A stretch of 64,000 nt of DNA from a virus (IMGVR_UViG_3300045923_000005:51764-115763), one strand, 5' to 3'. Shown: positions 1,212 through 46,033, counted from the stretch's first letter. Notes: a model not told the origin generated them from the sequence alone. Translations and numbers: made by a program.

Positions 1212-1898
1212 TTACTTCTGGAAAGAGCTTGCGCCTGCTTCCAGAGAGACCCAGTAGGTCAGCTTGCCGGTCTTGTTGGTGAACTTGGCGACGCCCATGC
1301 TGGCCAACTCAACCTTATAAGCACCTGGCATGATCTTGATGTTGTCCAGCTTGAAGACAGCCTTGAAACTCTTCACCGTGAAGGTTCCCTCAAGAGCTAC
1401 TTCTGCGTCATCAACGATCTCACCCTTCACGTCGATAGCCGCTAGGCTCAGACCACCTTCCTCGGTGCTCTGGACGATAATATTTGGACACTTCAAGATG
1501 CTGGAGACGTTCATGATCCATTCGTAGATCTCTTCCGTCAACTCGAACTCTACGTCATACTTGCTGACGTTGATGTTCTTTGAAGGAGGAGCCAGGATCA
1601 ACTTGGTATCCGTGAAACGTTGGCGGGTTCGTCCGCGCCCATTCAGGCCAAGGTAAACCAGCGACTCTTTCTCAATAGCAACTTCTGGGTTGCCCTTATT
1701 GAGTGAGAGAAGAGCTAGAGTCTTGTTCAGATCATAGATACCGAATTCAGACTCAAACACTTCATCAACATGGGCTTCGGCCAGAATGGTCTTGTTGCTG
1801 GAAATCGTTCGCAGCACTTGACCCGGCTTAACCACCAAACCACTGTTGATAGAAGCAAAATTCTTCAACACTTCAACAAAATTCTCACTCAACTTCAT
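1212..1898 (-). CDS. 45: DNA polymerase sliding clamp (T4 gp45 homologue)
   Basis: 228 aa, the same length as T4 gp45. N-terminus MKLSENFVEVLKNFASINSGLVVKPGQ versus T4 MKLSKDTTALLKNFATINSGIMLKSGQ. Similarity continues along the full length, and a GGAG SD lies upstream. Confidence 0.9.
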   Translation of the reverse strand: MKLSENFVEVLKNFASINSGLVVKPGQVLRTISSNKTILAEAHVDEVFESEFGIYDLNKTLALLSLNKGNPEVAIEKESLVYLGLNGRGRTRQRFTDTKLILAPPSKNINVSKYDVEFELTEEIYEWIMNVSSILKCPNIIVQSTEEGGLSLAAIDVKGEIVDDAEVALEGTFTVKSFKAVFKLDNIKIMPGAYKVELASMGVAKFTNKTGKLTYWVSLEAGASSFQK

Positions 1899-1904
1899 AG
1901 CAAA

Positions 1905-1936
1905 TCTCCAATGTGATGTATCTATTATACGCGACT
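1905..1936 (-). promoter_or_regulatory. promoter-like -10 box (GTATAATAG) with GGAG SD upstream of gene 45
   Basis: minus-strand reads gtcgcGTATAATAGatacatcacattGGAGatttgctATG; TATAAT lies ~29 nt upstream of the gp45 start. Confidence 0.4.
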
Positions 1937-2596
1937 TTACTGTAATAGAATAGGAGCCGCGTCTAGCTCAAACCCTAAGACTTTGATTGTACTTGCCAAT
2001 GTTCGTTCCAATGCCTCTATCGTCGCCTCATTACGGAGACGGCCGCAGATGATTGGATGACCGATCCATGCCCATTCAGAATAGTGAACTTTTGGATATT
2101 CCATCATCCATTGTTTTTCTGGACTCCAATCAGATTCTATATTGTAACGGAGCGCCGTTTCATAATAGTCTGGATCTGGTCCTCGACTGACTTCGATTAG
2201 ATGACCACCACCCTGACTGATCATCTGAATCTCGTTAGGAAAACGAACATCTGTCACGACATAGTTCTTACGAGGGTCAAGGTCGCGCATAAGAGCGGCT
2301 ACCCAAAGGTCTTTGTGGAAAATATTGCGACCGGCCTCTGTGCCCATCTGTTGCAATGCTTCGCGTGGAGTATATGGTCTACCCATGACCTTGGACCAAT
2401 AAACGCAGGGAGTCTCACGGAAGGTACGGGACTCTGGTGTGTCGCCCTCTAGCAGTATCCTGGGCCAACCGAAGATACAAGAGACGGCATCCTTGAGCTT
2501 ACTCGCGAATGATACAGCGATGAATCCGTGCTTGACTAGAATGTCTCCGGCAGTGCCTTTGCCGCTACCCATGAACCCTAAGAATCCTATCAGCAT
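1937..2596 (-). CDS. 1: deoxynucleoside monophosphate kinase (T4 gp1-like)
   Basis: P-loop GFMGSGKGTAGD compared with T4 gp1 LSGVKRSGKDTTAD; conserved VTDVRFPNE compared with VPDTRQDHE; 219 aa. Confidence 0.8.
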   Translation of the reverse strand: MLIGFLGFMGSGKGTAGDILVKHGFIAVSFASKLKDAVSCIFGWPRILLEGDTPESRTFRETPCVYWSKVMGRPYTPREALQQMGTEAGRNIFHKDLWVAALMRDLDPRKNYVVTDVRFPNEIQMISQGGGHLIEVSRGPDPDYYETALRYNIESDWSPEKQWMMEYPKVHYSEWAWIGHPIICGRLRNEATIEALERTLASTIKVLGFELDAAPILLQ

Positions 2597-2797: not shown

Positions 2798-3745
2798 TTA
2801 CAGATTGCCCACGAATTTAGCAACGGCTGGCATATTACCTTGGAAGGCATACGTGCCGACGTGGAATGTGCGCATCCATGGGCACAACCAAATCTCACCA
2901 CCCATATTGCGGTACAGCTGACAGAAGTGATAGTCTTCAGACAAGTAGCGATCAGAGCCGCCAACCTCGAAGGTATCACCCTTCTTCTTATCATTGTAGT
3001 CCTGGACGATGGTCATGGTCCGCTTGCGGTCGATGATACAATCGAAGAACGCATGGATGTAACGGGAGCCATCGAAGTTAGCCTGACCTACGTGGTCTGG
3101 TTTGTACTTGTACTCAGGATACTGTGCCTGGTAGCGCTCAAACACGTGGCGCTTGATCATCATGAAGCCTGTGCCTATCTCCATGACGCGCAATGGTTCG
3201 CCGACGTTGAAGGTCGTCGTGCCGGCGACTGGATTGAATACATAGTCACCGATTACTTGCTCGATCTCAGCTGGACCAGGACTACCCTTGGTCGCGACGT
3301 CGCGCAGTTCATTTGGTGTAATCAATGGGTTGAGTTTGACCGCATCGATTGCTTCCTGCCACTTCATACCTTTATGAACAGCCTGGAGAGCATTGGTCCA
3401 CTTAATGCTCTTCTTAGGATATGGAGCACCTATGATGTCCTTATCCAGAGCCAAGCAACCAATGATGTCACGCGGATCAAAGTGAATGTCGGCGTCAAGG
3501 AACAGCAGGTGAGTATAGCCTGAGCGTAAGAACTCGTCCACCAAGTAATTACGAGCGCGAGTAATCAGCGACTCGTTGAAAATGAAACTGAAGCGAGACT
3601 CAAACTGGTATTGTGCGCAAAGACCCTGAAGATCCAAGCATGCTTTCATGTACATACCGGTACATTGGCCACCATACATTGGTGTAGCGATGAAGAGTTT
3701 GTTCTTTCGTAGTTGTTCTACACTTATCTGAATGTTCTGCGCCAT
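2798..3745 (-). CDS. putative glycosyltransferase (DxD motif)
   Basis: 315 aa; N-terminal LFIATPMYGGQ plus HLLFLDADIHFDP (DxD), typical of nucleotide-sugar GT-A folds. Sits in the candidate DNA-modification cluster. Confidence 0.5.
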   Translation of the reverse strand: MAQNIQISVEQLRKNKLFIATPMYGGQCTGMYMKACLDLQGLCAQYQFESRFSFIFNESLITRARNYLVDEFLRSGYTHLLFLDADIHFDPRDIIGCLALDKDIIGAPYPKKSIKWTNALQAVHKGMKWQEAIDAVKLNPLITPNELRDVATKGSPGPAEIEQVIGDYVFNPVAGTTTFNVGEPLRVMEIGTGFMMIKRHVFERYQAQYPEYKYKPDHVGQANFDGSRYIHAFFDCIIDRKRTMTIVQDYNDKKKGDTFEVGGSDRYLSEDYHFCQLYRNMGGEIWLCPWMRTFHVGTYAFQGNMPAVAKFVGNL

Positions 3746-3811
3746 CTGGTACCCTCATAGTTCTTGTAAAGTCGTGGGATTGTTATATTATAGGTCAATT
3801 TAACTTAAGAG

Positions 3812-4027
3812 TCAAGTGCCATCATGTTGTGCTTTAACAAATGCTTGGTAAGACTTTGTCCAGTAAGCCTTTCTATCTGGTTTGTCAAATCTTGAACCCG
3901 CATAGACCGCGTCGGCTGGCACTTGGTTGGCCATCATGACTGTGATTGTGGTTTGTCCATCTTTAAGAGTACCAACGTGATCAAACAGTACTGCGTACCG
4001 GGCAACTGTTACGACTTCGTTGGCCAT
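3812..4027 (-). CDS. hypothetical protein (71 aa)
   Basis: small ORF between the kinase and glycosyltransferase genes; promoter-like box downstream of its stop. Confidence 0.3.
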   Translation of the reverse strand: MANEVVTVARYAVLFDHVGTLKDGQTTITVMMANQVPADAVYAGSRFDKPDRKAYWTKSYQAFVKAQHDGT

Positions 4028-7373: not shown

Positions 7374-8580
7374 CCCACATTCCTGCACTGACACCATTCC
7401 AACCTTCGCGTGCAAGAGGATTGCTTGGGTCTTTGCGCCGGTACTCTACAAAATCATACCGTAAGTCTTCATAGGCTCGGCTACCCAGTTCAAGCATTGC
7501 TTCCCTGAAGTAGCACACCAGACTGATGCGCTCTAACTCCACTCCGGCCTTGGAGATGATAGGAGTGTTGCCGTGAATGTAATCATGGTTGGCGACTAGT
7601 AGCAGATCACCAGGACGGATGTTGACGGCTGCCCGGACCTCTGGCAATACCAGATAGGCTCCGGAGTAATCGTTGTCCTTAGCGACGACCGTCAGGTTGC
7701 TGAACCCTGCTGCCAAGTCACCGGCGTCTCTATGTGCCGCCGTCCGGAAGTTCTTGTTGACGGTGATCGTTGTGAACGGTGTCTTAGGAATGTGGAAACT
7801 TGGATCGATCTGAGACGTCATAGCCATCTGGACGTTCCAACGGTATGGCAGCAGTTCTTTGAAACCTTTGGACAGCTGCTTCATAAACGGCCAGCTGAGT
7901 TTGAACCGCTCGAAGTTGTGTGCTGTATAAGACGTCGCCCGACCATATGGGATTCGTGGATACCTGTCGAACCAGCCGGCAATCCCGGAGTCAACCGGGT
8001 TGGCATAGGTGGTGTCGCTTATCAGGTTGTTCAAGACCCAGGAGGCATCGTTCCTTATCTGAGAACCGGGAACACCATCAACCAGACTGTCGTGTAGTCG
8101 GCTATCCAGCCAGCGATTGAAGTCGAAGTTGAGTCTGGCTTTCTCTTCACCGAGCCAGACCATACCGCGTGTGTCTTTCTTGTTCTTGGCGATGCTCTTG
8201 ATGCGGTCAATATCTTCCTGATTGAAGGTCGCCCGGTCGCCCAGCTTGGATAAGAAGTTCAGGATGTCCAACTGCTCTGTGGTTGCCCAGTCGCGGCCCT
8301 GACATTTGACACCCTTTGGACCGGCTGCTAGACCACGGTTCTGTGTAGGCTTGGCCGCCTGCATCAAACCTTCATAAGCACCGGCCTGTTGTTCTTTGGT
8401 GAAGAAGTTCTTACGGAACATCAGGACGACATTATGTTCCCCGTTTTCTACCGGGGACAGGGGATCCTTAAGATAGACGTCTGTGTCTTCTTCAATCAGA
8501 ATATCGTAGTGGGAGTCATCAAGAAACTTACCAAGGAGGTCTTCGCATTCACGACGCGTGACTTCAAGTACTCTTACCAA
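7270..8580 (-). CDS. 2-oxoglutarate/Fe(II)-dependent dioxygenase (HxD…H…RxS); possibly TET/JBP-like
   Basis: TAAHRDAGD (HxD) … ANHDYIHGNTP (distal His) … ERISLV (RxS), the canonical 2OG oxygenase triad spacing. The table start (GTG at 8634) lies inside a terminator hairpin, so the start was moved to the TTG preceded by GGAG (~8580). Confidence 0.6.
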   Translation of the reverse strand: MVRVLEVTRRECEDLLGKFLDDSHYDILIEEDTDVYLKDPLSPVENGEHNVVLMFRKNFFTKEQQAGAYEGLMQAAKPTQNRGLAAGPKGVKCQGRDWATTEQLDILNFLSKLGDRATFNQEDIDRIKSIAKNKKDTRGMVWLGEEKARLNFDFNRWLDSRLHDSLVDGVPGSQIRNDASWVLNNLISDTTYANPVDSGIAGWFDRYPRIPYGRATSYTAHNFERFKLSWPFMKQLSKGFKELLPYRWNVQMAMTSQIDPSFHIPKTPFTTITVNKNFRTAAHRDAGDLAAGFSNLTVVAKDNDYSGAYLVLPEVRAAVNIRPGDLLLVANHDYIHGNTPIISKAGVELERISLVCYFREAMLELGSRAYEDLRYDFVEYRRKDPSNPLAREGWNGVSAGMWDGEEFRLFAESTDRTDVWKEYHSKEESSLESLFG

Positions 8581-8587
8581 TTTCTTC

Positions 8588-8623
8588 TCCGAAAACAAAG
8601 GGCCGGAGCATTGCACTCCGGCC
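8588..8623 (-). terminator. rho-independent terminator-like hairpin downstream of cobS
   Basis: minus strand GGCCGGAGtgcaatgCTCCGGCC (8-bp perfect stem) followed by CTTTGTTTTCGG. Confidence 0.45.
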
Positions 8624-8683
8624 AAATTCTTCACTGTAGATATCTATTATACCTCACAGTTGTGTAAGAGTATATAGGAAAGT

Positions 8684-10294
8684 TTAGAAAGGTACATCCT
8701 CATCGTCATCGCCAGTGCTCGTGTTGGCCAGACTCATGTTCTTATTTGCCGCATGACTCATGACGACCGACTCCAGAGCCGTCTTAGCATCCCGTTGGGC
8801 GACCGAGTCATTGCCCGGGATAACCGAAGTCTGACCATGGCTGGTCACCGTGACCATACCCATGTCGTCAGGATCACTGACCTTGATGGCGGTCTTATAC
8901 TTGACCGACAGAGTCGCAATGTTCATCGCGTTCTTGATCAGGTTGGTCGAAGTCGAACCACCGGCTGCCGGCTTCGGTGTGTTGACCGGTTTGGAAGGAG
9001 CAACCGGTTTCGCTGCCGGCTGCGTCACCGGCTTCTGAGGAGTGACCGGAGTGGCAGGCTTCTGGTTGGCCATGGCCTGTTGACTCGCCGAGCGCAAAGC
9101 GGTGATCGCCGGATTAGGAGTGAAGGCACCCGGATCGACCGGAGCCGTCTTGGGAGCAACCGGCGCACTGGCGACAGTTTCCTTCTCATCGATCTTGGCA
9201 TCGATTTTCGTGTAGAAGTCTAAGTAGACCGTCTTCACTTCATCATCGAACCGGTTCAAGCAGAGCTCGATAGCCTTGCGCTTGTTGTTCCAGATCACAT
9301 ACGCACGAGCGATGTGGGTCAGGCGGCGAGTGCTGATGACTTCATCCACACCACCTTCCTTGTAGGTCTTACGGATCAACTCCGCCCACTTGGCGAGGTT
9401 GGTCGCGAAAGAGAGGCTCGGTTTGTTCAGGCTGGTGAACAGATTCGTGAGAATCTTGATCTCCGTGTTCAGTGACGGATATTCCTGTTCAACCGTAATG
9501 GCGAACCGTTCCAGGAAGGCTTCGTTGAGGACGTTGGCTCCGATGAACCGACCGTCATCACTACCCTTACCCTTGGTGTTGGCAGTCGCGATGATGTTGA
9601 AGCCAGAAGCAGGTGTGATAAACTCACCGCGCTTCTTGTTGAAGTAGCCTTTACCTTCGAGCACCGGCTGGAGGCAGAGCAAGCGCTCTGAACCATAGTC
9701 GGTTTCGTCGAGGAGAAGGATCGCGCCACGCTTCATGGCGACGAGGACCGGACCATCACGCCATACGGTGTTGCCGTCGATCAACTCATACGAACCAATC
9801 AAATCGGTCTCGTCGGTTTCCTTGGTAATGTTCACGCGGATCAGTTCGCGCTGGAGCTCGGCACAAGCCTGCTCAGCACCCAGGGTCTTACCATTGCCGG
9901 ACTGACCGGTAATGTAGACTGGGTAGAAGATGCGGGATTCGATGATCCCACGGAGGTCGTTGTAAAAGCCGAACGGCACGTACACAGGGTCGCGCTCGGG
10001 AATGAAGCTGTCGGCCAGGGTCTTGATCTGAGGAGCGGCGAGCTCCTGTTTGATCGCATTGACCAGCACAGGCGAAGGAGCCTCGACCGGAGCGGTGATA
10101 TCACCACTCACCCGGTATTTGCCCCAAGCCTTGCGGTTAGCTTTGTTGTTCATGAATGCCCACGGCATCGGGAGGCTCCTAGCCTTGGTGTACTCCTCGA
10201 TCTGCTTGGTCGTTACCACGTTCGTGTTGAAGTGGTTGGCCATATTAGATATGAGCGAATTGAGCTCTTCCGGCGAGTAGCTGGGTTTGGGCAT
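8684..10294 (-). CDS. cobS: CobS-like AAA+ (MoxR-family) ATPase
   Basis: Walker A ITGQSGNGKT, Walker B ILLLDETDYG, sensor/arginine region; 536 aa with a Pro/Ala/Thr-rich low-complexity C-terminus. Confidence 0.8.
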   Translation of the reverse strand: MPKPSYSPEELNSLISNMANHFNTNVVTTKQIEEYTKARSLPMPWAFMNNKANRKAWGKYRVSGDITAPVEAPSPVLVNAIKQELAAPQIKTLADSFIPERDPVYVPFGFYNDLRGIIESRIFYPVYITGQSGNGKTLGAEQACAELQRELIRVNITKETDETDLIGSYELIDGNTVWRDGPVLVAMKRGAILLLDETDYGSERLLCLQPVLEGKGYFNKKRGEFITPASGFNIIATANTKGKGSDDGRFIGANVLNEAFLERFAITVEQEYPSLNTEIKILTNLFTSLNKPSLSFATNLAKWAELIRKTYKEGGVDEVISTRRLTHIARAYVIWNNKRKAIELCLNRFDDEVKTVYLDFYTKIDAKIDEKETVASAPVAPKTAPVDPGAFTPNPAITALRSASQQAMANQKPATPVTPQKPVTQPAAKPVAPSKPVNTPKPAAGGSTSTNLIKNAMNIATLSVKYKTAIKVSDPDDMGMVTVTSHGQTSVIPGNDSVAQRDAKTALESVVMSHAANKNMSLANTSTGDDDEDVPF

Positions 10295-10324
10295 TTCAGT
10301 TCATTCCATGTTTCGATTTCATAG

Positions 10325-10408
10325 AGGCTATTATACGCCTAATCGCACACAAAGGTTGCTGATTTAACTTATTTTCGAACATTCTTTTCAAAACGTTAAC
10401 TAGTACCG
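10325..10408. repeat. conserved intergenic cassette copy A (TATTATAC-N25-ATTTAACTTATT…CGTTAACTAGTACCG)
   Basis: near-identical ~85-bp element also at ~12912, 38122, 41510 (partly inverted), 46034, 51920; lies between cobT stop and cobS start. Confidence 0.7.
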
Positions 10409-12907
10409 TTATTCGGCCACTTCGGCGGCGAACTGGCGAGCGATCAGCTTATTGTTATGCTTCTTCTTCTGGTTGTAGCTGAAAGCCTGGAATAACTGGT
10501 CTTGGGTCATACCAGCATTCATGAAGCACTTGCTACCGTCGTTGATCACCGTAGTGTCCACATAATAATAGTTGCTATAACCAAGATTGGGCACCGCCAC
10601 GAAACCGGTGGTCTTCAGCTGCTTGGCTAGGTTGTTGAAGTCCTTCTTGAACTCTTCACGACCGGCCAAACGCTGGAGGATGTATGCCTCCTGGCCGAAG
10701 TAGTATCCAATGTGGCGGGCACCGGTAGTGGCCTGGATGAGCTCGGTCACAGAAGCCTGGAACATGTTGAACATGTAGTTGCCGCTGCTCAAACCAGCCT
10801 GCTCAGGGAGCACGCTGATCTTAGTGGTCGCGTCAGTCACACCGAACTTCGTGCGAGTGATCGACGCAGACGTCAGGTTATTCATGAACGCGGGCGGGAA
10901 CACCATGGAGTTGTTGCCATCACCGTCGCTCAGGTAGATCACGTTGACGATGTCACTGTGGTGCTCGTTCTTGAACTGCTTGATGATCTCTTTGGATGCG
11001 ACCAGAGTCTCAATAAATGGCGTGCCACCTAGGTTCATACCAACCGTCTCTAAACTCTGCGCAAGGCTGAAGTTGGGGACCGAACCGAATGCCGTCGCCA
11101 CATCGGCCGGACGACCGTAGGGACTGGCGAGCTCACCGAACATGTTGACCATGTTGAACGAGCGCTTGTAGTGGTTGCCGCTGAACTTGCTGCTCAGCAG
11201 ATGGCGCAGGCAGAAGTCACCGGCCTGAAGAGTAAAGGTATTGTCAGGGTCCTTGGAGACCGTAAACGCAGCGCGCTGGCTCTGTTTACCATCCTTGCCG
11301 AAGCAACCATAGTAGCCATGACCATCAGTGTAGCCGTAAAGGTCGAACGGGATACCGACGCGCTTACAGAAGGTCGCCAGGATCAGAGACTGCTCTACGA
11401 CGTAGCGCATGAAGTCGCTCATGCTGATCGACATATCCAGGAACATCACCATGCCGTGGCTTTTACCCTTGGCGATGGTAGTGACCTTGCGGAAGAGGTC
11501 GTTGGTCAGCTTATAGCGGGCCAGACGGTTGCCGTCCAGGTCACCACTCTTAGCGGTCATCTGGCGCGAGTACTGGCTCGCGTTCTTGCGCATCTCAAAC
11601 TCTTTGACCAGCAACTGGATGTAGTTCTTGTTGCGCGTATGGAATACTTTAGTGACGCCCATGGCGACGGCATCATAGTTCAGCTTGGTGCCATAGTGTT
11701 TCTGCATCTGGTAGCGGATGCCGGTCTCGAAGGTATCTAACACAGTCTTGTTGGAGACGATGATGTTTTCCAAATGCGCTTCCGGCATCTTGAAGAACAC
11801 CTGTGACTCAGCGGTGCGGTCATTCATACCCTCTTCCGCGTCACGAAAAGCCTTGTCAGTTTCAGAGTCCGGCTCAATTTCTACCGGCTGCTCAGATTCA
11901 CTGTCGTCCTCGTCATCTCCACTCTTACCACCTTCCTTGGGCTCAGAGTTTGAACGGCTGTCTGAAGACTCATCTTCATCGTCGGCCTCATAGGAATCCT
12001 CGTCAGAGTCACCGTCAGAAGCGTCGCCTTCAGAATCATCCTTGTCAGATTCCTCGCCGTCACCCTCGTCAGATTCTTCACCATCTTCATCAGAAGGCGA
12101 CTTGTTGTCACCCTCGTCCTCGGACTCTTCATCATCCGGGTCGGCGTCATTACCATCGGCATCTTGTTCCTCAGTCTCGCCGTCACCCTCGTTGGCGTCA
12201 TCACCTTCGTCAGACTCATCAGATTCCTCAGAGTCATCCGACTCCTCGTTCTGCTTCTTGTCCTTCTTAGGCTTAGGCTGCTTGGGTTGCGGCTGTTGTT
12301 TAGGTTTCGGCTGCGCATGAGCCTTCTGGTAGTCATACACTTCACGAGCCAACTGCTCCACCTGCGCCCAGGTGTCAGCCGTAGCAATGCGGTCCACGAA
12401 GGCTTGCTCTTCAGTGTTGAAGATCACGAGCGCTTGCGCACCGAGTTTGAAGTGGACGTTGATGCGGTCGATCAGACCCATCTTTGAATAGTCACCGTTC
12501 AGTTTCTTGATCTGAAACAGGTCGCGGTCGAACAGTTCCTGGTAAGCTTCCGCAAAGGCTTTGCGCAGGCCAGGATACTTGATCTTGATGATGCGCTCGA
12601 TGCGCGCGTCTTCAATGACGTTCAAGAAACGCTTGATGTTCTTGCGCTTCTTGTCGTTGACGATGGCGTCGTGCCAACCCTGGAGAGGCGTGTGAAGCGC
12701 ATGGCTGATTTCATGACCCATGAGCAGGTCATAGATCACACCGCTCATGTCCTTCCAGATCGGGCAGGTCAGGACGCGGGTTTCAAGGTTGAACTTGGCC
12801 GTCCGCACTTGCATGTGGCGAACGGTGATATTCTCGGCCGCCATCAGTTTGGCTAGCTGAGACTTATTCTCCTGGAGGGTTGCCGTCTTCTTCACAACTT
12901 TGATCAT
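10409..12907 (-). CDS. cobT: CobT-like protein: N-terminal HExxH, poly-acidic linker, C-terminal vWA domain
   Basis: 832 aa. LLMGHEISHALH (HExxH). Residues ~200-350 are almost pure D/E/S (…DDSEESDESDEGDD…). C-terminal MIDAS motif FLDMSISMS (DxSxS) typical of vWA. Paired with the MoxR ATPase. Confidence 0.8.
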   Translation of the reverse strand: MIKVVKKTATLQENKSQLAKLMAAENITVRHMQVRTAKFNLETRVLTCPIWKDMSGVIYDLLMGHEISHALHTPLQGWHDAIVNDKKRKNIKRFLNVIEDARIERIIKIKYPGLRKAFAEAYQELFDRDLFQIKKLNGDYSKMGLIDRINVHFKLGAQALVIFNTEEQAFVDRIATADTWAQVEQLAREVYDYQKAHAQPKPKQQPQPKQPKPKKDKKQNEESDDSEESDESDEGDDANEGDGETEEQDADGNDADPDDEESEDEGDNKSPSDEDGEESDEGDGEESDKDDSEGDASDGDSDEDSYEADDEDESSDSRSNSEPKEGGKSGDDEDDSESEQPVEIEPDSETDKAFRDAEEGMNDRTAESQVFFKMPEAHLENIIVSNKTVLDTFETGIRYQMQKHYGTKLNYDAVAMGVTKVFHTRNKNYIQLLVKEFEMRKNASQYSRQMTAKSGDLDGNRLARYKLTNDLFRKVTTIAKGKSHGMVMFLDMSISMSDFMRYVVEQSLILATFCKRVGIPFDLYGYTDGHGYYGCFGKDGKQSQRAAFTVSKDPDNTFTLQAGDFCLRHLLSSKFSGNHYKRSFNMVNMFGELASPYGRPADVATAFGSVPNFSLAQSLETVGMNLGGTPFIETLVASKEIIKQFKNEHHSDIVNVIYLSDGDGNNSMVFPPAFMNNLTSASITRTKFGVTDATTKISVLPEQAGLSSGNYMFNMFQASVTELIQATTGARHIGYYFGQEAYILQRLAGREEFKKDFNNLAKQLKTTGFVAVPNLGYSNYYYVDTTVINDGSKCFMNAGMTQDQLFQAFSYNQKKKHNNKLIARQFAAEVAE

Positions 12908-12911
12908 GAAG

Positions 12912-12996
12912 ACTATTATACTCTTAATTTGACCGGCAGGGTGCTAATTTAACTTAATCCCGAACAATCTTTTCCGAAACGTTAACTAGTACCGGT
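12912..12996. repeat. conserved intergenic cassette copy B
   Basis: gaagacTATTATACtcttaatttgaccggcagggtgctaATTTAACTTAatcccgaacaatcttttccgaaaCGTTAACTAGTACCGG. Confidence 0.7.
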
Positions 12997-13094
12997 TTCT
13001 ATGCACGTCTCTGACAGTTGTCCGCTCTCCGGGCTCGATCTGTCTCTGTTCTGACCTGTACCGACTATTATACGCTGATCGGAGACAGAGACCG

Positions 13095-17536: not shown

Positions 17537-18006
17537 GCGTTATTCGTAACCGGCTTCGTAATATTCAAGGTCGTCCCATCAGGCCAAATGATGATCAGGC
17601 GTTTATTGCTTCCTGCTTTCAACACTTGCTTCTGTGCGTATCTAATCGTAGTCCAGGTGCCGGAGCGTAGCTCCTCATCTTTGCTTTTTGGCGTGGCAAA
17701 CATAACGTCTGACGCGTCGACGATATCATGGTTACGCTCTATATAGTCCTTCTCAGGAAGGATAATATCACCAACACAATTGGCTCGCTTCTTATCATTC
17801 AATGGCGGATGAATGGTGATGTGGAACTGAAATGTACAAGCCACTTTGTGTGCCTGCTCATCCGCTCCTACACAGTCTCCATGATGGAAAGATTCCAGTT
17901 GCGCTCCGCTCTTCTGAAGCATAGCGAACGCATGGGCGAGGGCATCCATCTGCCAGGTCGTCGCGCCTTCAGCCGTACCAGTGAACCCAATGGAGACTTT
18001 CTTCAT
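17533..18006 (-). CDS. hypothetical protein (157 aa)
   Basis: ORF immediately downstream of gene 55. GTATAATAG box 6 nt upstream of the ATG. Gly-rich N-terminal loop SIGFTGTAEG. Confidence 0.45.
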   Translation of the reverse strand: MKKVSIGFTGTAEGATTWQMDALAHAFAMLQKSGAQLESFHHGDCVGADEQAHKVACTFQFHITIHPPLNDKKRANCVGDIILPEKDYIERNHDIVDASDVMFATPKSKDEELRSGTWTTIRYAQKQVLKAGSNKRLIIIWPDGTTLNITKPVTNNA

Positions 18007-18039
18007 CCTTCTATTATACTCTGTTTTTTCTTAAGAGTA

Positions 18040-18765
18040 TTAGGCAGTGACCCGACGCTTCGTTGTGATGGCCTGTTTAATGACTGGCGCGACCGGTTCT
18101 TCAAAGAGCTTCTCTAACCCTTTCTTAACGGGGATCTTGGCAGCTGCTGTTGCGGCGGACTTGGCCTTAGCCCTTGCTTGGGCATCCTCATATTTGTCGA
18201 TGAACTCGGCAATGTTATCGTAGAGCTCGAACTGTTGCGCCCCGTCTTCACTATCCCCGGATTCAGCTTCATGGAGGATCCCGGCTTGCTGTGTGGCCTT
18301 GTACTTGACGTAGAGGTGCTTCTTCTCTTTCTGAACTCGTCTAACGAACGCATAGTAGATGATCTTGGTAAAATACGCAAAGGGATATTTGCTCCGCTTA
18401 GGATTGAAATTGTCGAAGTACATGATGCAGTTTTCGATGGCGTCACCGATCATTTCATCACGACATGGATAGTTGTGGAAGTTAGGCTTGTGAGCCAGAT
18501 TCTCGGCGATCAACAAAAGCTGCTTGCCTAGGATGTCTGGAATCTTTGGCTTGGGCTTCTTTGCCTTCTTGGCTTCCTTCTGATTGATCTTGTGCTGGAT
18601 GATGAGCGCAAGCATCTCGGCATTGTTGACGTAGTGTCCACTCTTGGCCTTCTTTTCGGCCGTGGACTTCGTAGAAGCCAACTCCTGAATGTACTTGCTC
18701 TTCTCTGTGATTGGTTTGACTGGAGTCGCTGCTTTCTTTTTTGCAGTCTTCTTTTTTGTTGCCAT
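18040..18765 (-). CDS. 55: late-transcription sigma factor gp55 with Lys-rich N-terminal extension
   Basis: HYVNNAEMLALIIQHK / LIAENLAHKPNFHNY / EMIGDAIENCIMYFDNF…YFTKIIYYAFVRRVQKEKK align with T4 gp55 NYVNNKELLQAIIDWK / LIAEGLSKRFNFSGY / EMIADGIEASIKGLHNF…NAFVQRIKKERK. Confidence 0.8.
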   Translation of the reverse strand: MATKKKTAKKKAATPVKPITEKSKYIQELASTKSTAEKKAKSGHYVNNAEMLALIIQHKINQKEAKKAKKPKPKIPDILGKQLLLIAENLAHKPNFHNYPCRDEMIGDAIENCIMYFDNFNPKRSKYPFAYFTKIIYYAFVRRVQKEKKHLYVKYKATQQAGILHEAESGDSEDGAQQFELYDNIAEFIDKYEDAQARAKAKSAATAAAKIPVKKGLEKLFEEPVAPVIKQAITTKRRVTA

Positions 18766-19114: not shown

Positions 19115-19408
19115 TAATGTAACCTGTATGTCATTGCAGGGGACGAGGATTAGCCCATAGCTTCGCTAGGGAATCACTCGTTTGTCACCGCGCTCTTTTA
19201 GAGCGATCAGACTTGGGACTTCGTTGGCGCGTTATACGCGCTACAGAGTTGGCTCATCCCTATGAGTTGCCGATACCACTTTGCTGTGCCCGTCTAGTGG
19301 ATGCACTCAAACGCCGACCGTAGTTGCCCCGAAGCGTAAGAGTATTGCGTTGTATCTATTATCTAGTATATCAGCAAGGTTCAATTATACCGCGATGGAT
19401 TGTAAGAG
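19115..19408 (-). other. ~290-nt GC-rich non-coding region with multiple hairpins (candidate structured RNA or gene remnant)
   Basis: No ORF of 60 aa or more on either strand in an otherwise tightly packed genome. Hairpins CGCTCTtttaGAGCG and GCGCGttatACGCGC. Confidence 0.3.
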
Positions 19409-20986
19409 TCAACCCTTCAGTGGTATTGTGTAGTGAGATACCTTGAATTTTTCCTCAAGGTAGATTACCATTCTAGTGGCATAATGCTTAAGAGTATAGT
19501 TTGGCTTCTCTCCGGCCGGATCTAACCGGAAGTCATCTGCGATATCATAGAGTGTAGCTGTGGACTTGTCTTCAGAGAGACGAAGTGCCCGCCCAATACT
19601 TTGGAGTGTTCGCTTCTTTGATTTTGTGGGACTGGCAAAAATGACGTTATGGAGATTTCGGATATTGATTCCTGTAGAGAAGACTCCATAAGACGCAACA
19701 AGGATAGCATCAGTTTCGTTTTCTGTGATAGCTCTGATGGCTTCACGCTGATCTGTTTCTGTTCCACCGTGAATGAAGAATACTTTTCTATCACCTGCTT
19801 TCTCCAAAATCATATCATATAGTATCTGACCATGCTTCTCAACAAATTGGAAAAGCAATAGGGAATTGCCTTCAAGTGAGATAGCAAGATTACGAATGAA
19901 CCGGTTCCTTGGTTCAGAGCCGATTATATAGCTGACCTCCCCGAGGAAGCCTGCCTGTGCCTTTGATAGACCCTTCACCAACCAATGCTTGACTTCGGTC
20001 GCGACCTTGTCTCGTGTGCCTGGAGGATGTTTAAGGACCAAGGATTTGATCGCCAGCTGAGCGGAGTATCCACTGTCCATCATTTCCTTGGTGGAGATGG
20101 TCTTGGTGATAGGTCCAAACAAACCCTCAACCATAAGATTATTCACTAACTCTTCATCAGTGGTGCCGGTCGTTGCGAGCCGGTAAGGAGCATTGACACA
20201 GTTCTTCATAGTCTCACCGACGCACTTGGCCGCGAAGGTATGAGCCTCATCACCTATTACATAAGAGAAAGAGTGGAAGAATTCTTTTGGAAGATTATAC
20301 AGGGACTGCCACGTGCTGACCATCAGACGCGTAGAAGGAAGGAGGGATGCCGAGAAGCCTTGGTAAAGTTTCTGGACAGAACCCTCCACATCAAAACCGT
20401 TCGCGGAAGAGTAGTCCTTGAAGTCTCCTACCATTTGCTCTACGAGACTTGTAGTCGGGACGATCAATAAACCGGTGCGCGAAGGATCATCTTGTAAGAG
20501 ATAGCGCATGAAACAGTAGATTATGTAAGACTTACCAGAGGCAGTCGGACTGACGAGCATCAGTCGCTTGTAGCGGATACTCTTAGCAAACCCGATGACC
20601 TGATAGTCTCGCGCAGCGAGCGGCTCACCCTTACTGCGGATGTCTAGTGTCTGAATGAACTCTTCTGCCTCAAGGACAGAGAAGTTGTTCATCAGGATTA
20701 GGTTTGGATCATAGGCGACCGTATAGCCGCGCTCTTTGGCGAAGTCAAACAGATAGCGCAGCAAACCGGAGTAGAGATACTTGTTGCGCAGATTGAATAA
20801 TCTTATTTTTCCATCCCAATGTCTTTTCTTATATTGGGGACTAAATTGGGCATCAGGAACCTCAAATGTGAAGTACTCTGATAGCTCCTTTAGGACTGAA
20901 GGTTCACCGGTAACTTTGGTGTATACGTTGTTGACTTTCTCAGTCTGTAGGTCTGCCATTATTGCCCGCTGATGAACTTTTCCCAA
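19409..20986 (-). CDS. uvsW: UvsW-like SF2 DNA helicase
   Basis: motif I LVSPTASGKS, DEAH box VIGDEAHTF, motifs III-VI (TATTGTT… QSIGRALR); 525 aa versus T4 UvsW 503 aa. Confidence 0.85.
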   Translation of the reverse strand: MGKVHQRAIMADLQTEKVNNVYTKVTGEPSVLKELSEYFTFEVPDAQFSPQYKKRHWDGKIRLFNLRNKYLYSGLLRYLFDFAKERGYTVAYDPNLILMNNFSVLEAEEFIQTLDIRSKGEPLAARDYQVIGFAKSIRYKRLMLVSPTASGKSYIIYCFMRYLLQDDPSRTGLLIVPTTSLVEQMVGDFKDYSSANGFDVEGSVQKLYQGFSASLLPSTRLMVSTWQSLYNLPKEFFHSFSYVIGDEAHTFAAKCVGETMKNCVNAPYRLATTGTTDEELVNNLMVEGLFGPITKTISTKEMMDSGYSAQLAIKSLVLKHPPGTRDKVATEVKHWLVKGLSKAQAGFLGEVSYIIGSEPRNRFIRNLAISLEGNSLLLFQFVEKHGQILYDMILEKAGDRKVFFIHGGTETDQREAIRAITENETDAILVASYGVFSTGINIRNLHNVIFASPTKSKKRTLQSIGRALRLSEDKSTATLYDIADDFRLDPAGEKPNYTLKHYATRMVIYLEEKFKVSHYTIPLKG

Positions 20987-21402
20987 TCCATGAACGATTT
21001 TACTTGCCAGGTTCGCGCGCTCAGTTCCTTACACACACTCTGGCAGAAAGCAATCGCTTCCTCGTTATTGATTTTCTTTTGTTGGAGTTTGATCAAGTCA
21101 GGGTCTGCTTCCATATAGAGGTTCATGTCGGCTTTCAACAGGAATTTGAACTGCTGCCAGCCGAGTGCTGTTAACTGAGCCTGATCCATGCGGCCGGACA
21201 TCCAATCATACTTCAGCTTCTTCATCTGAATGTACTCGAAGTTCTTCATCTTCAAGGAAGCAGAGTGAGCGGCAATCTGTCCCGCATACTTCGCATGCAG
21301 CGTAGGAATGCGGAGCAGTTCCATCTGTGGGTCGGTTTTGTTGATGATGGAGTCTGCGTCAGACCACATCTCGATCAAATCTTCTAAGGGAATACACTTC
21401 AT
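20959..21402 (-). CDS. uvsY: UvsY-like recombination mediator
   Basis: 147 aa; PLEDLIEMW…LKYDWMSGRMD parallels T4 UvsY RLEDLQEEL…RLDYYSGRGD; overlaps the uvsW start. Confidence 0.55.
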   Translation of the reverse strand: MKCIPLEDLIEMWSDADSIINKTDPQMELLRIPTLHAKYAGQIAAHSASLKMKNFEYIQMKKLKYDWMSGRMDQAQLTALGWQQFKFLLKADMNLYMEADPDLIKLQQKKINNEEAIAFCQSVCKELSARTWQVKSFMDWEKFISGQ

Positions 21403-21440
21403 AGTGCTTCTATTATACCATAATCTATTGAAAGAGTCAA

Positions 21441-37750: not shown

Positions 37751-38119
37751 TTACTGGCTGACGACGTGAGTGTATGCGGTCGCGTATTTCGCGGTCGGCG
37801 GAGCGACGACGGTGTTGCCATCTTTGTCCGTGTAAATGCGGAGTTGCTGCTTGGAAACCCGTTTGGCCGGAACTATCCGACCGTTGGCGTAGTGCTTGCC
37901 GATGTTTTGGATTTCGATGAGGGTCGATTCGACCGGAACGAAAGTGAACCGGGTGCAACCTCGTGAAAAGGCTGTCGGGACCGCCTGCTCTTCCTGTGAG
38001 CTAATGACGTCCGTAACGATGTACTTGTTCTGCCAAGCACCGTCGGTCGCGAAAAGGCTACCGACTTCGATACTGAACTCATTGGCCTTGACGCGGCGAA
38101 CGTTGTTTGCTTGATTCAT
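37751..38119 (-). CDS. hypothetical protein (122 aa)
   Basis: first gene after cassette copy C; GTATAATAG 7 nt upstream of the ATG. Confidence 0.4.
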   Translation of the reverse strand: MNQANNVRRVKANEFSIEVGSLFATDGAWQNKYIVTDVISSQEEQAVPTAFSRGCTRFTFVPVESTLIEIQNIGKHYANGRIVPAKRVSKQQLRIYTDKDGNTVVAPPTAKYATAYTHVVSQ

Positions 38120-38121
38120 GT

Positions 38122-38205
38122 GGACTATTATACACCAAATCTAGAAGATAGGGTGCTGATTTAACTTATTTCCAAAGTATCTTTTAGAAACGTTAACTAG
38201 TACCG
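38122..38205. repeat. conserved intergenic cassette copy C
   Basis: ggacTATTATACaccaaatctagaagatagggtgctgATTTAACTTATTTccaaagtatcttttagaaaCGTTAACTAGTACCG. Confidence 0.7.
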
Positions 38206-38382
38206 TTATTTGCGGCCAATCAGATGAACCTGTGAATCAGGAATGACTTCATAGGCTCCTTTGTTGGCCGCAATGGCGACGGTGAACTTCTTAGGAGGAG
38301 ATCCGCAGAAGATGCAGGTCTTGTACCCTAGTTCCAAACGACGCGGCTCGATGATCTCTTCACAGAGCGGTCGCGAACACAT
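38206..38382 (-). CDS. zinc-ribbon protein (~58 aa; internal ATG of the 94-aa table ORF)
   Basis: CSRPLCEE…CIFCG (CxxxxC…CxxC); the ATG overlaps the stop of an upstream 59-aa TM ORF as TAATG. Confidence 0.35.
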   Translation of the reverse strand: MCSRPLCEEIIEPRRLELGYKTCIFCGSPPKKFTVAIAANKGAYEVIPDSQVHLIGRK

Positions 38383-41452: not shown

Positions 41453-41509
41453 TGAATATGATAACCTCCCAACCAGGGAGTTGTGGTATACAACATAGAG
41501 GGTATTATA

Positions 41510-41566: not shown

Positions 41567-41568
41567 CT

Positions 41569-46030: not shown

Positions 46031-46033
46031 GGT

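What the first reader, a model, noticed from the sequence alone, without database searches (positions are those of the whole stretch)
12900..12925. Perfect -10 boxes (GTATAATAG) placed 5-9 nt upstream of start codons, implying leaderless or near-leaderless mRNAs
Before cobT (12907), the 122-aa gene (38119), the 157-aa gene (18006), uvsY (21402), the 74-aa genes at 44278 and 46030, and in variant form the plus-strand gene at 53249, the spacing TATAAT-N5-9-ATG recurs. A sigma70-type start 7 nt downstream would fall on or next to the A of the ATG, and no SD is present. A second conserved box, ACTCTTACA or ACTCTTAAG (plus-strand TGTAAGAGT/CTTAAGAGT), lies 10-12 nt upstream of many of these TATAAT boxes, at ~3806, 8663, 18030, 19395, 40460, 44298, 50040, 52027, 59490, 60040, 60108. 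This is too close to be a -35, so it may bind a phage-encoded factor. By contrast gene 45 and the GT gene have 25-45-nt leaders with GGAG. The phage may therefore use two expression architectures.
Basis: partly seen in the sequence, partly recalled or inferred. Interest (0 to 1): 0.6.

Follow-up and report, generated by a model that had tools for sequence, protein, structure and literature searches.

The report
Promoters abutting start codons in phage
An uncultured T4-like phage places strong bacterial-type promoters so close to about a dozen start codons that the mRNAs should begin at the AUG itself, and most of these promoters are copies of a ~95-bp repeated cassette, a layout known from Deinococcus and Thermus phage but not described for T4-like phages in the papers searched.

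Summary
GTATAATAG occurs 11 times, all on the gene strand (0.26 expected). TATAAT-N7-ATG occurs 7 times (0.32 expected). ACTCTTAMR-N11-TATAAT occurs 8 times (0.00 expected).

The sites fall into three promoter classes that share the -10 region G-N-G-TATAAT-A.
- **Class A** is TT(G)ACTCTTA(C/A)(A/G)-N11-TATAAT. Leaders are variable.
It has no -35 and always ends TATAAT-N6/7-ATG.
- **Class C** has class B's upstream half plus a TTGACT or TTTACT -35.

Twelve window promoters have an ATG 5-9 nt after the hexamer. Ten of these open real ORFs, including CobT-like and UvsY. Two open 8- and 15-codon mini-ORFs that end at the next gene's ATG. None has a Shine-Dalgarno core, against 45% of other genes. 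All use ATG.

Independent relatives (CobT 65% and 49% identical) keep the cassette with N6-ATG at cobT. More distant relatives have no promoter there, or have 25-35-nt leaders.

Leaderless expression is the best reading, but transcript 5' ends are unmapped and the host is unknown. I rate it a new variant of known kinds.

The parts
12905..13000 (-). Class B cassette in front of the 832-aa CobT-like gene. The order is CGGTACTAGTTAACGTTT, AAAAG, ATTGTTCG, AAGTTAAAT, TAGCACCCT, N17, TATAAT (12915-12920), AGTCTTC, ATG (12905-12907).
   Evidence: The ATG opens 832 codons. The N-terminus aligns with the Met1 of homologues. Orthologous cobT in L226 and L227 has the same cassette with N6-ATG.
38117..38212 (-). 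Class B cassette. TATAAT is at 38127-38132, followed by AGTCCAC and the ATG at 38117-38119, which starts a 122-aa ORF.
46028..46125 (-). Class B cassette. TATAAT is at 46038-46043, followed by ACTTACC and the ATG at 46028-46030, which starts a 74-aa ORF.
10292..10415 (-). Class B cassette. TATAAT is at 10330-10335 and the ATG at 10320-10322. That ATG opens an 8-codon mini-ORF (MKSKHGMN) whose TGA (10296-10298) lies 1 nt before the ATG (10292-10294) of the 536-aa CobS-like AAA ATPase.
   Evidence: L226 has an 81-aa leaderless ORF at this position, ending TAATG at cobS. L227 has ATA instead of the cassette ATG, plus a 27-nt leader with AAGGA.
42529..42625 (-). Degenerate class B cassette. It reads AAGTTAAATCGTTCCCCT, N17, TATACT (42538-42543), TAAGTC, then the ATG at 42529-42531, which starts a 146-aa HD-domain protein.
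   Evidence: HD_4 hit.
41450..41590 (-). Class C cassette: AAGTTAAAT plus TTTACT-16-TATAAT (41504-41509). The ATG at 41494-41496 opens a 15-codon mini-ORF whose stop overlaps (ATGA) the ATG at 41450-41452 of a 96-aa ORF.
51914..52010 (-). Class C cassette: AAGTTAACT plus TTGACT (51946-51951), 16 bp, then TATAAT (51924-51929), AGCTCCC and the ATG at 51914-51916, which starts a 79-aa ORF.
21400..21440 (-). Class A promoter of uvsY: TTGACTCTTTCA, N11, TATAAT (21412-21417), AGAAGCACT, then the ATG at 21400-21402. The leader would be 2-3 nt.
   Evidence: scores it 11 of 12 with a TG extension. The UvsY profile covers residues 6-147. In L226, uvsY has no promoter and starts at GTG behind AAGGA.
18004..18041 (-). 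Class A promoter: AATACTCTTAAG, N11, TATAAT (18013-18018), AGAAGG, then the ATG at 18004-18006, which starts a 157-aa ORF.
   Evidence: The L226 orthologue keeps class A with N6-ATG.
44273..44310 (-). Class A promoter: TTAACTCTTACA, N11, TATAAT (44282-44287), ATAGTG, then the ATG at 44273-44275, which starts a 73-aa ORF.
59463..59499 (-). Class A promoter with the -10 hexamer TACAAT (59471-59476), then ATTAG and the ATG at 59463-59465, which starts a 149-aa ORF.
53214..53251 (+). The only plus-strand example. Class A: TTAACTCTTACA, then TAGAAT (53238-53243), AGGAT and the ATG at 53249-53251, which starts a 427-aa ORF.
1898..1960 (-). Diverged class A promoter of the gene 45 clamp. TATAAT is at 1924-1929, followed by a 25-nt leader with GGAG and the ATG starting at 1898. 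This is the leadered contrast.
   Evidence: The orthologues in L067 and L226 have the same layout.
3745..3815 (-). Class A promoter: TTGACTCTTAAG, N11, TATAAT (3787-3792), with a 41-nt leader to the 315-aa Anp1-like glycosyltransferase.
   Evidence: Conserved in L067, L226 and, in variant form, L228 and L229.
8578..8674 (-). Class A promoter (TATAAT 8646-8651) followed by a 9-10-bp GC-rich hairpin (8601-8623), a T-tract, GGAG and the probable ATG at 8580 of the Tet/JBP dioxygenase.
   Evidence: The layout is conserved in L226 and L227 with different stem sequences.
40428..40478 (-). Class A promoter (TTAACT-17-TATAAT, hexamer at 40450-40455) with a 19-nt leader containing GGAGG, before a 59-aa ORF.
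19384..19412 (-). The best canonical promoter in the window, TTGACT-17-TATAAT (class A). About 270 nt with no ORF follow it.
   Evidence: Conserved in L226 at 2520.
13042..13092 (-). A GTATAATAG copy (13065-13073) that lies in the loop of an inverted repeat between the deformylase gene and the cobT cassette. It is not next to a start codon.
   Evidence: The stems differ in sequence but are kept in L226 and L227.

Best explanation
**What they are.** These are sigma70-type early or middle promoters of an uncultured T4-like phage. They share an extended -10 region, G-N-G-TATAAT-A, and differ upstream.
- **Class A** has a TT(G)ACT -35 at 17 bp, with further conserved bases CTTA(C/A)(A/G).
- **Class C** has a TTGACT or TTTACT -35.
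- **Class B** has no -35. It has conserved blocks that reach to about -85.

**How they most likely work.**
- In classes B and C, and in about 40% of class A copies, the gene's ATG lies 5-9 nt (mostly 6-7) after the hexamer.
- In the window's class B and C copies with TATAAT (six of seven), the spacer from its third base on is almost purine-free and ends in a pyrimidine.
- RNA polymerase would therefore start on the A of the ATG and make an mRNA with no 5' UTR, or with at most 3 nt. Such an mRNA is translated without a Shine-Dalgarno sequence, as in the 70S/IF2-dependent leaderless pathway.
- Where the cassette ATG is out of frame with the next gene, it opens a mini-ORF that stops at or 1 nt before that gene's ATG. 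The gene would then be reached by termination-reinitiation.
- The ~95-bp class B cassette behaves like a portable promoter-plus-start-codon unit that is repeated in front of unrelated ORFs.

**Shown versus inferred.**
- Shown: sequence anatomy, enrichment, start-codon assignment, absence of SD, conservation in relatives.
- Inferred: promoter activity, the exact transcript start, leaderless translation, reinitiation.
For: 1. **Enrichment and strand bias.** All 11 GTATAATAG copies are on the gene strand. Class A and TATAAT-N7-ATG are far above shuffle expectation.
2. **Canonical geometry.** The top sigma70-like scores in the scanned regions are exactly these sites.
3. **Sharp offset peak** at 6-7 nt. 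This matches the 6-7 bp found for experimentally validated leaderless genes in Deinococcus (PMC12340547).
4. **The ATG is the start codon.**
   - 9 of 12 class B and C ATGs in this phage's two contigs open 56-832 codons.
   - CobT Met1 aligns with the Met1 of ten homologues, and the conserved block begins about 19 residues in.
   - The UvsY profile starts at residue 6.
5. **No SD.** 0 of 11 candidates have an SD 4-mer core, against 38 of 85 other called genes and a 9.8% background.
6. **ATG only.** All candidates use ATG, while 21 of 85 other calls are GTG or TTG.
7. **Independent relatives keep the layout.**
   - cobT has the class B cassette with N6-ATG in L226 (CobT 65% identical) and L227 (49%).
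   - The L226 orthologue of the 157-aa gene has class A with N6-ATG.
   - Where L226 uvsY lacks a promoter, it uses GTG behind AAGGA.
   - Where L227's cobS has an SD leader, the cassette ATG is ATA.
8. **Not an RNA structure.** Class B has no conserved fold (-1.7 kcal/mol) and no Rfam match. This fits a DNA-level signal.
9. **Same motif, ordinary leaders.** The same -10 motif also drives ordinary leaders with GGAG. It is therefore not itself a fixed-distance translation signal.
Against: - No transcript 5' ends or expression data exist, and the host is unknown. The polymerase's start-site rule and the host's capacity for leaderless translation are assumed.
- Class B lacks both a -35 and a TGn extended -10. 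It may be weak, or may depend on an unidentified factor.
- No terminators precede the cassettes, so read-through transcripts that carry the ATG internally probably exist too.
- Class A spacers are purine-rich (AGAAGG, AGAGGG), so the exact start is less predictable there.
- Composition downstream of the ATG does not distinguish candidates from other genes.
- The second contig that raised the copy number (IMG/VR 3300044796_000056) is probably the other half of the same genome. Independent support therefore rests on two relatives only.
Confidence: 0.65

Rival explanations
1. The genes are translated mainly from longer read-through transcripts. On those transcripts the AU-rich UAUAAUA just upstream of the AUG acts as an SD-independent (S1-type) ribosome landing site. 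Its match to a -10 box is secondary or irrelevant.
For: - The scans found no terminator-like site directly upstream of the cassettes.
- Genes are tightly packed on one strand, so read-through is likely.
- The motif sits where an RBS would sit.
Against: - The hexamer comes with a -35 at 16-17 bp (classes A and C), or with ~75 bp of conserved upstream DNA (class B). A translational enhancer needs neither.
- Identical motif copies sit 19-84 nt from start codons that have their own GGAG.
- Where a relative has an SD leader, the cassette ATG has decayed to ATA.
- In Deinococcus the same layout was shown to act as a -10 box and could not be replaced by an RBS (PMC12340547).
Confidence: 0.12
2. The ACTCTTA(C/A)(A/G) box, and perhaps class B's CAGCACCCT block, is the binding site of a phage-encoded activator. 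This would be analogous to the T4 MotA box at -30. These would then be middle-mode promoters used after sigma remodelling, not plain host promoters. This concerns who recognises the promoter and is compatible with leaderless output.
For: - The box is centred near -29, where the MotA box lies (my knowledge of T4 middle promoters).
- Bases -32 to -24 recur far above chance, while the TTG part of the -35 is only 86, 58 and 48% conserved. The sites were selected for ACTCTT, so conservation of the box itself is partly circular.
- Class A precedes uvsY, DNA ligase and RNA ligase, which are typical middle-type genes.
- Class B has no -35 at all.
Against: - The full TTGACT-17-TATAAT consensus is present in several copies and needs no activator.
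- No MotA, AsiA or sigma-like Pfam family was found among 67 small ORFs between 36 and 60 kb. The rest of the genome was not scanned.
- The box sequence does not match TGCTTtA.
Confidence: 0.25
3. The fixed ATG is a by-product of cassette mobility. The ~95-bp repeat spreads by recombination, as PeSL elements do, and carries an ATG along. The spacing reflects common descent of the copies rather than selection for leaderless expression.
For: - Copies are 74-86% identical over ~95 bp while the flanking genes are unrelated.
- Three of 12 copies open only mini-ORFs.
- Gene content behind the cassette differs between relatives: an 81-aa ORF in L226, an 8-codon remnant here and an SD leader in L227.
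Against: - Class A copies, which are not part of the long repeat, show the same 5-9-nt placement at unrelated genes.
- The ATG is in frame with conserved proteins (CobT) in three lineages even though the spacer sequence differs (AGTCTTC, AGTCCC, AGTCTC).
- The mini-ORFs end precisely at the next ATG.
- The ATG decays where it is not needed.
Confidence: 0.1

Closest known systems
The "-10 region adjacent to ORF" leaderless pattern of Deinococcus-Thermus (Zhong et al. 2025, PMC12340547; de Groot et al. 2014 as cited there)
   Same: - A TANNNT -10 lies 6-7 bp upstream of the start codon.
- Many copies have no -35.
- There is no RBS.
- A second set of genes with GGAG coexists.
- Gene callers mis-set the starts. 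Here cobS is called 42 codons short.
   Different: - That pattern is a host-genome-wide habit, affecting about a third of genes.
- Here it is a phage feature tied to perfect TATAAT boxes, defined upstream cassettes and early or middle-type genes.
- The host is unknown and nothing has been tested experimentally.
Thermus phage phiYS40 middle and late transcripts (Sevostyanova et al. 2007, J Mol Biol 366:420; from my own knowledge, the paper could not be opened)
   Same: A lytic myovirus whose -35-less promoters yield leaderless mRNAs for a temporal class of genes.
   Different: - phiYS40 is not T4-like.
- Its host phylum uses leaderless mRNAs widely.
- No ~95-bp repeated cassette is described for it.
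- Here the late genes keep SD leaders behind CTAAATA/TATAAATA late-type motifs.
PeSL and PmSL mobile regulatory cassettes of T4-like phages (Arbiol et al. 2010, PMC2839356; Comeau et al. 2014, PMC4122927)
   Same: - Repeated, conserved promoter-containing intergenic cassettes with an A/T-rich upstream part.
- They cluster among small variable ORFs.
- They are associated with gene-content differences between relatives.
   Different: - PeSLs have a stem-loop, a -35/-10 pair, and end with a Shine-Dalgarno sequence and the start codon.
- Class B has no conserved stem-loop, no -35 and no SD.
- In class B the start codon sits at the predicted +1.
T4 early and middle (MotA-dependent) promoters
   Same: - They use the host sigma70 -10 box.
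- A conserved box sits near -30 in front of uvsY and other DNA-metabolism genes.
- There is a separate late class with a TATAAATA-like box.
   Different: - T4 transcripts have leaders with SD.
- The box sequence differs: ACTCTTA against TGCTTtA.
- No MotA or AsiA homologue was found in the part scanned.
Lambda cI mRNA from PRM, the classic leaderless phage mRNA (Shean & Gottesman 1992, as cited)
   Same: The transcript starts at the A of the AUG, and translation does not depend on an SD.
   Different: That is a single regulatory gene of a temperate phage. Here a dozen or more genes of a lytic T4-like phage are involved.

Membership tests
sigma70-type promoter | A -10 hexamer close to TATAAT | tested here: met
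   Most copies have perfect TATAAT. Three have TACAAT, TAGAAT or TATACT.
sigma70-type promoter | A -35 hexamer close to TTGACA, 16-18 bp upstream | tested here: inconclusive
   Met for classes A and C: TTGACT, TTAACT or TTTACT at 16-17 bp. Not met for class B, which has CACCCT or CCCCT at that position.
sigma70-type promoter | Transcription starts 6-9 nt after the hexamer | not testable with these tools
   No transcript data are available. In vitro transcription or 5'-end mapping is needed.
Leaderless mRNA gene | A -10 box about 6-7 bp upstream of the true start codon | tested here: met
   Offsets are 7 (x6), 6 (x3), 5 (x2) and 9 (x1) in the window. Starts are verified by homology for CobT and UvsY.
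Leaderless mRNA gene | No Shine-Dalgarno sequence, and an AUG start codon rather than GUG or UUG | tested here: met
   0 of 11 candidates have an SD core, against 38 of 85 other genes. All candidates use ATG.
Leaderless mRNA gene | The mRNA 5' end coincides with the start codon and is translated | not testable with these tools
   This needs Cappable-seq or dRNA-seq and reporter or ribosome-profiling data.
PeSL cassette of T4-like phages | A repeated conserved promoter cassette among variable small ORFs, linked to indels between relatives | tested here: met
   There are seven copies in the window and more on the companion contig. The content behind the cobS cassette differs in L226 and L227.
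PeSL cassette of T4-like phages | A stem-loop (terminator-like) just upstream of the promoter | tested here: not met
   The consensus fold of nine copies is -1.7 kcal/mol with no covariation. The scan found no terminator-like site there.
PeSL cassette of T4-like phages | A Shine-Dalgarno sequence and then the start codon at the 3' end | tested here: not met
   The start codon follows the -10 box by 6-7 nt and there is no SD. The PeSL definition comes from PMC4122927.
T4 middle (MotA-dependent) promoter | A MotA box TGCTTtA centred at -30, plus a sigma70 -10 box | tested here: not met
   A box exists at the right place, but its sequence is ACTCTTA(C/A)(A/G).
T4 middle (MotA-dependent) promoter | Phage-encoded MotA and AsiA | tested here: inconclusive
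   No such Pfam family was found among 67 ORFs between 36 and 60 kb. About 100 kb of the presumed genome was not scanned.
T4 late promoter | TATAAATA at -10 without a -35, upstream of late genes | tested here: not met
   The motif here is TATAATAG and precedes non-structural genes. A separate CTAAATA/TATAAATA motif precedes the sheath, portal and scaffold genes.

The most novel reading that the evidence does not exclude
A clade of T4-like phages has evolved a portable "leaderless expression cassette". It is a ~95-bp promoter without a -35, read with the help of a phage or host factor bound to its conserved upstream blocks. Its 3' end is the start codon itself, so any ORF recombined behind it is expressed without a ribosome-binding site. 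The phage would then separate its early or middle genes (leaderless) from its late genes (SD-led) at the level of translation initiation. It might do so by altering the host initiation machinery, as reported for Thermus phage phiYS40. The L7/L12-CTD-like protein at 50838-51179 is one speculative candidate.
Probability: 0.15. Interest if true: 0.8.

Novelty: new variant of a known kind. Interest (0 to 1): 0.55.

Why it matters
- **T4-like gene expression.** It would add a leaderless class to the textbook T4 scheme. In that scheme early, middle and late classes differ only in promoter recognition and all use SD-led mRNAs.
- **Annotation.** Standard gene callers mis-set starts at such sites. Here cobS is called 42 codons short. 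The TATAAT-N6/7-ATG rule gives a simple correction for this clade.
- **Modular gene shuffling.** A cassette that supplies both promoter and start codon is a minimal plug-in expression unit. That is relevant to how hyperplastic regions of T4-like genomes acquire and express foreign ORFs.
- **Host inference.** The phage's host must translate 5'-AUG mRNAs well. That narrows the search for the host of an uncultured lineage whose capsid protein is closest (55% identity) to cyanomyophages.

Tried and rejected
- **No cultured close relative.** Nucleotide search of GenBank phages found no match. Protein searches found only cyanomyophages, at ~32% (CobT) and 55% (capsid) identity.
- **Metagenome scan for the class B core.** It returned four chance hits only.
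- **Viral-contig scans for the cassettes.** The real hits came mainly from contig 3300044796_000056. I first treated it as a relative. It comes from the same metagenome as an identical copy of a window protein, and it carries the complementary T4 core genes (RNR, gp32, ligases, baseplate hub). It is therefore most likely the other half of the same genome (91.5 + 76.2 = 167.7 kb). I do not count it as independent.
- **RNA-element reading of class B.** Rejected: no consensus fold and no Rfam family.
- **T4 late-promoter reading.** Rejected: a different motif and different genes.
- **A-rich or G-poor bias after the ATG as a leaderless signature.** It does not discriminate. All genes here are A-rich at the 5' end.
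- **IMG/VR relatives found through UvsY and CobT** (40-52% and 30-37% identity). They have their own TTGCTT-N17-TA(T/C)AAT promoters with 25-35-nt leaders. They are useful as a contrast but not as support.
- **Literature.** Searches for leaderless plus T4-like, and leaderless plus cyanophage, returned only incidental mentions. The phiYS40 paper could not be opened.
- **Host identification.** Not achieved.


Full report
**What the window is.**
- Almost all genes lie on the minus strand.
- Profile matches identify a T4-like phage. They include:
  - tail sheath, portal, scaffold and Gp23 capsid;
  - large terminase;
  - a UvsW-type DNA helicase, UvsY and gp46/47;
  - a CobT-like "peptidase" and a CobS-like AAA ATPase;
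  - a Tet/JBP dioxygenase.
- GenBank phages give no nucleotide match. The best protein matches are cyanomyophages, at 55% for the capsid protein and ~32% for CobT.
- The window comes from a 90.7-kb Logan contig. A 91.5-kb contig in JGI metagenome 3300044796 matches it exactly over the 11.6 kb compared.
- The host is unknown.

**Checking the observation.**
- At 12900-12925 the minus strand reads AAGAG-TATAAT-AGTCTTC-ATG.
- GTATAATAG occurs 11 times, all on the gene strand, against 0.26 expected.
- TATAAT-N7-ATG occurs 7 times against 0.32 expected.
- ACTCTTAMR-N11-TATAAT occurs 8 times against 0.00 expected.
- For the 26 sense-strand TATAAT hexamers, the distance to a downstream ATG peaks sharply at 6 nt (2 sites) and 7 nt (6 sites), with one more at 9 nt. 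Elsewhere the distribution is flat. The binomial P is 4e-4, or 2e-5 if an ORF of at least 50 codons is required.

**Anatomy: three classes, not one.** Aligning the sites shows a shared extended -10 region, G-N-G-TATAAT-A, and three kinds of upstream region.
- **Class A** is TT(G/A/T)ACTCTTA(C/A)(A/G)-N11-TATAAT.
  - The consensus scan ranks exactly these sites highest: TTGACT-17-TATAAT at 21440-21412 and 19412-19384, and TTAACT-17-TATAAT at 44310-44282 and 40478-40450.
  CGGTACTAGTTAACGTTT-NN-AAAAG-ATTGTTCG-NAAAT-AAGTTAAAT-CAGCACCCT-N17-TATAATA-N6-ATG(A).
  - It has no -35-like hexamer and no TGn extension.
  - Window copies end at the ATGs at 12907, 38119, 46030 and 10322, and, with TATACT-N6, at 42531.
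- **Class C** has class B's AAGTTAA(A/C)T block plus a TTGACT or TTTACT -35 at 16 bp. Its copies end at the ATGs at 51916 and 41496.

**Class B is a DNA-level signal.** It has no conserved RNA fold (-1.7 kcal/mol, no covariation) and no Rfam match.

**Is the ATG the start codon?**
- In this phage's two contigs, 9 of 12 class B and C ATGs open ORFs of 56-832 codons.
- CobT Met1 aligns with the Met1 of ten homologues. The conserved block starts about 19 residues in, and there is no other ATG in between.
- The UvsY profile begins at residue 6.
- Three cassette ATGs open mini-ORFs of 8, 11 and 15 codons.
  - The window's two end TGA-A-ATG at the CobS-like gene (10294) and ATGA at the 96-aa gene (41452). 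That is the geometry of termination-reinitiation.
- None of 11 candidates has an SD 4-mer core in -18 to -4. The figure is 38 of 85 for the other called genes, with a 9.8% background.
- All candidates use ATG, whereas 21 of 85 other calls are GTG or TTG. The gene calls are crude, so I treat these as rough figures.

**Why the transcript should start at the ATG.**
- In the window's six class B and C copies with TATAAT, the 7-nt spacer is almost purine-free from its third base on and ends in C or T (AGTCCAC, AGTCTTC, AGCCTCT, ACTTACC, ACCCTCT, AGCTCCC).
- The A of the ATG is therefore the first suitable purine at position 8.
- From established knowledge of sigma70 start-site choice (6-9 nt after the -10 box, purine preferred after a pyrimidine), initiation should fall on that A.

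**The motif is not a fixed-distance translation signal.** The same -10 region, with class A or diverged upstream parts, also sits at other distances:

| Gene or region | Distance from the hexamer to the start codon |
|---|---|
| Gene 45 | 25 nt, leader with GGAG |
| Glycosyltransferase | 41 nt |
| 59-aa ORF | 19 nt, leader with GGAGG |
| Tet/JBP | about 65 nt, through a hairpin |
| 49936 ORF | 84 nt |
| Downstream of 19384 | 270 nt with no ORF |
| 13065-13073 | No start codon; the motif lies in a hairpin loop |

**Late genes use a different signal.** They carry CTAAATA/TATAAATA-type motifs and SD leaders.

**Relatives.**
- A caution first. The IMG/VR contig that supplied many extra copies (3300044796_000056; L007, L012, L054, L056) is from the same metagenome and carries the complementary T4 core genes. 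It is probably the other half of the same ~168-kb genome. I count it as more copies, not as independent evidence.
- Independent relatives came from CobT homologues.
- **L226** (CobT 65% identical, a different metagenome):
  - cobT has the class B cassette with TATAAT-AGTCCC-ATG.
  - The orthologue of the 157-aa gene has class A with N6-ATG.
  - A class B cassette with N7-ATG starts an 81-aa ORF that ends TAATG at cobS, exactly where the window has its 8-codon remnant.
  - uvsY has no promoter and starts at GTG behind AAGGA.
- **L227** (49% identical):
  - cobT again has class B with TATAAT-AGTCTC-ATG.
  - The cobS cassette reads ATA instead of ATG and is followed by a 27-nt leader with AAGGA.
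- **L228-L231** (42-44% identical): cobT abuts the deformylase gene with no promoter.
- **More distant T4-like contigs:** uvsY and cobT have TTGCTT-N17-TA(T/C)AAT promoters with 25-35-nt leaders.
- The promoter-abutting layout is therefore specific to a clade and conserved within it. Loss of the promoter goes with gain of an SD and a non-ATG start, and gain of a leader goes with loss of the cassette ATG. That is the pattern expected if the ATG functions as a 5'-terminal start codon.

**Mechanism and its limits.**
- Most likely these are host-RNA-polymerase promoters of early or middle genes.
- At 12 window sites, and at least 12 more on the rest of this phage's DNA, they would initiate at or within 3 nt of the AUG and give leaderless mRNAs.
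- Promoter activity, the start site and translation are inferred.
- Class B's lack of a -35 and its ~75 bp of conserved upstream DNA suggest UP-element-like contacts or an activator.
- Bases conserved inside class A's spacer also lack an explanation.
- No MotA, AsiA or sigma-like family was found among 67 small ORFs, but most of the genome was not scanned.

**Comparison with known systems.**
- The closest functional match is the experimentally validated "-10 box 6-7 bp upstream of the ORF" leaderless pattern of Deinococcus-Thermus. It coexists there with GGAG-led genes (PMC12340547).
- Another match, from my own knowledge, is the leaderless middle and late mRNAs of Thermus phage phiYS40.
- The closest structural match is the PeSL mobile promoter cassette of T4-like phages. 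PeSLs contain a stem-loop, a -35 and a Shine-Dalgarno sequence (PMC4122927). Class B has none of these.
- dRNA-seq of phage phiKZ found no leaderless transcript (PMC8244752).
- Full-text searches found no report linking leaderless mRNAs with T4-like phages or cyanophages.

**Verdict.**
- It is a new variant of known kinds.
- Interest is moderate because the key step is unmapped and the host may simply be a lineage in which leaderless genes are common.

Noticed in passing
window 19114-19384 (minus strand): About 270 nt without an ORF follow the best canonical promoter in the window (TTGACT-17-TATAAT, 19412-19384), between the UvsW-type helicase gene and the next gene. The promoter and a similar gap are kept in relative L226 (2520-2916). 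There is no Rfam match even at E<=1, and the fold z-score is only -0.6. It may be an uncharacterised non-coding RNA or a long leader.
   Followed up: partly
window 8578-8651 (minus strand); L226 12048-12102; L227 5536-5606: The Tet/JBP dioxygenase gene has a class A promoter, then a GC-rich hairpin (window 8601-8623, -23.6 kcal/mol, z -3.8) with a T-tract, then GGAG and the ATG. The layout is kept in two relatives with different stem sequences. It looks like a leader terminator or attenuator. The longest ORF (GTG at 8634, 454 aa) probably overcalls the start. The source's gene call and the profile alignment both favour the ATG at 8580 (436 aa).
   Followed up: partly
window 13042-13092 (minus strand); L226 ~7601-7653; L227 ~1144-1191: One GTATAATAG copy sits in the loop of a 13-16-bp inverted repeat between the deformylase gene and the cobT cassette. 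The stems differ in sequence among three phages but stay complementary (z -2.3, -4.6, -1.9). This could be an operator around a promoter, an RNA processing or stability hairpin on read-through transcripts, or the stem-loop part of a PeSL-like unit.
   Followed up: partly
window 50838-51179 (minus strand): A 113-aa protein has a stretch (KVMAIKEHRGITQFGLKESKDWVEE) that matches the ribosomal protein L7/L12 C-terminal domain. The Pfam PF00542 hit has E 1.4e-5 and 25.7 bits, just under the 25.9-bit cut-off. This is of possible interest because L7/L12 recruits IF2 and other translation GTPases.
   Followed up: partly
window 10168-10294 (minus strand): The source assembly's gene call starts the CobS-like ATPase at 10168 (494 aa). 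Profile homology from residue 13 of the long form, and the L226 orthologue's start, support the ATG at 10294 (536 aa). That ATG has no SD and follows the mini-ORF. This is an example of mis-annotation caused by the unusual initiation layout.
   Followed up: yes
window 24532, 30964, 32676, 33158, 34043, 36100, 38566, 55436, 56599 (minus strand); TATAAATA upstream of 25384: CTAAATA occurs 12 times against 5.4 expected. It lies 20-40 nt upstream of the sheath, portal and other structural genes, which have SD leaders. This is probably the T4-type late promoter of this phage, as with NATAAATA in cyanomyophages.
   Followed up: partly
window 60017-60125 (minus strand): A tandem duplication of a class A promoter, TAAACTCTTACAA(A)TAAAGCGAGTATA, with the copies 80 nt apart. 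The first copy has TATATG as its -10 box and overlaps the stop codon of the 217-aa gene. The second has TATAAT directly abutting an ATG (offset 0) of a called 58-aa ORF. That promoter could not express this ORF.
   Followed up: no
window 2798-8634 and L223 (genes just beyond the window start): A DNA-hypermodification gene cluster: Tet/JBP dioxygenase, an ADDT-family protein, a P-loop nucleotide kinase, a DNMK-like kinase and an Anp1-like glycosyltransferase. A RegA translational repressor (PF01818) lies just outside the window.
   Followed up: no
window 33246-33328 (plus strand): ARAGORN predicts an 83-nt tRNA-Gly (anticodon ACC) on the strand opposite to nearly all genes, in the 33141-33338 gap. 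The odd length, anticodon and strand make a false positive likely.
   Followed up: no
L081-L094 and L166-L209 (distant T4-like contigs): In other T4-like lineages, both cobT and uvsY are preceded by a shared promoter type, (G/T)TTGCTTT-N15-17-TA(T/C)AAT, with 25-35-nt leaders that often lack a clear SD. The TTGCTTT box resembles the T4 MotA-box core but sits at the -35 spacing.
   Followed up: no
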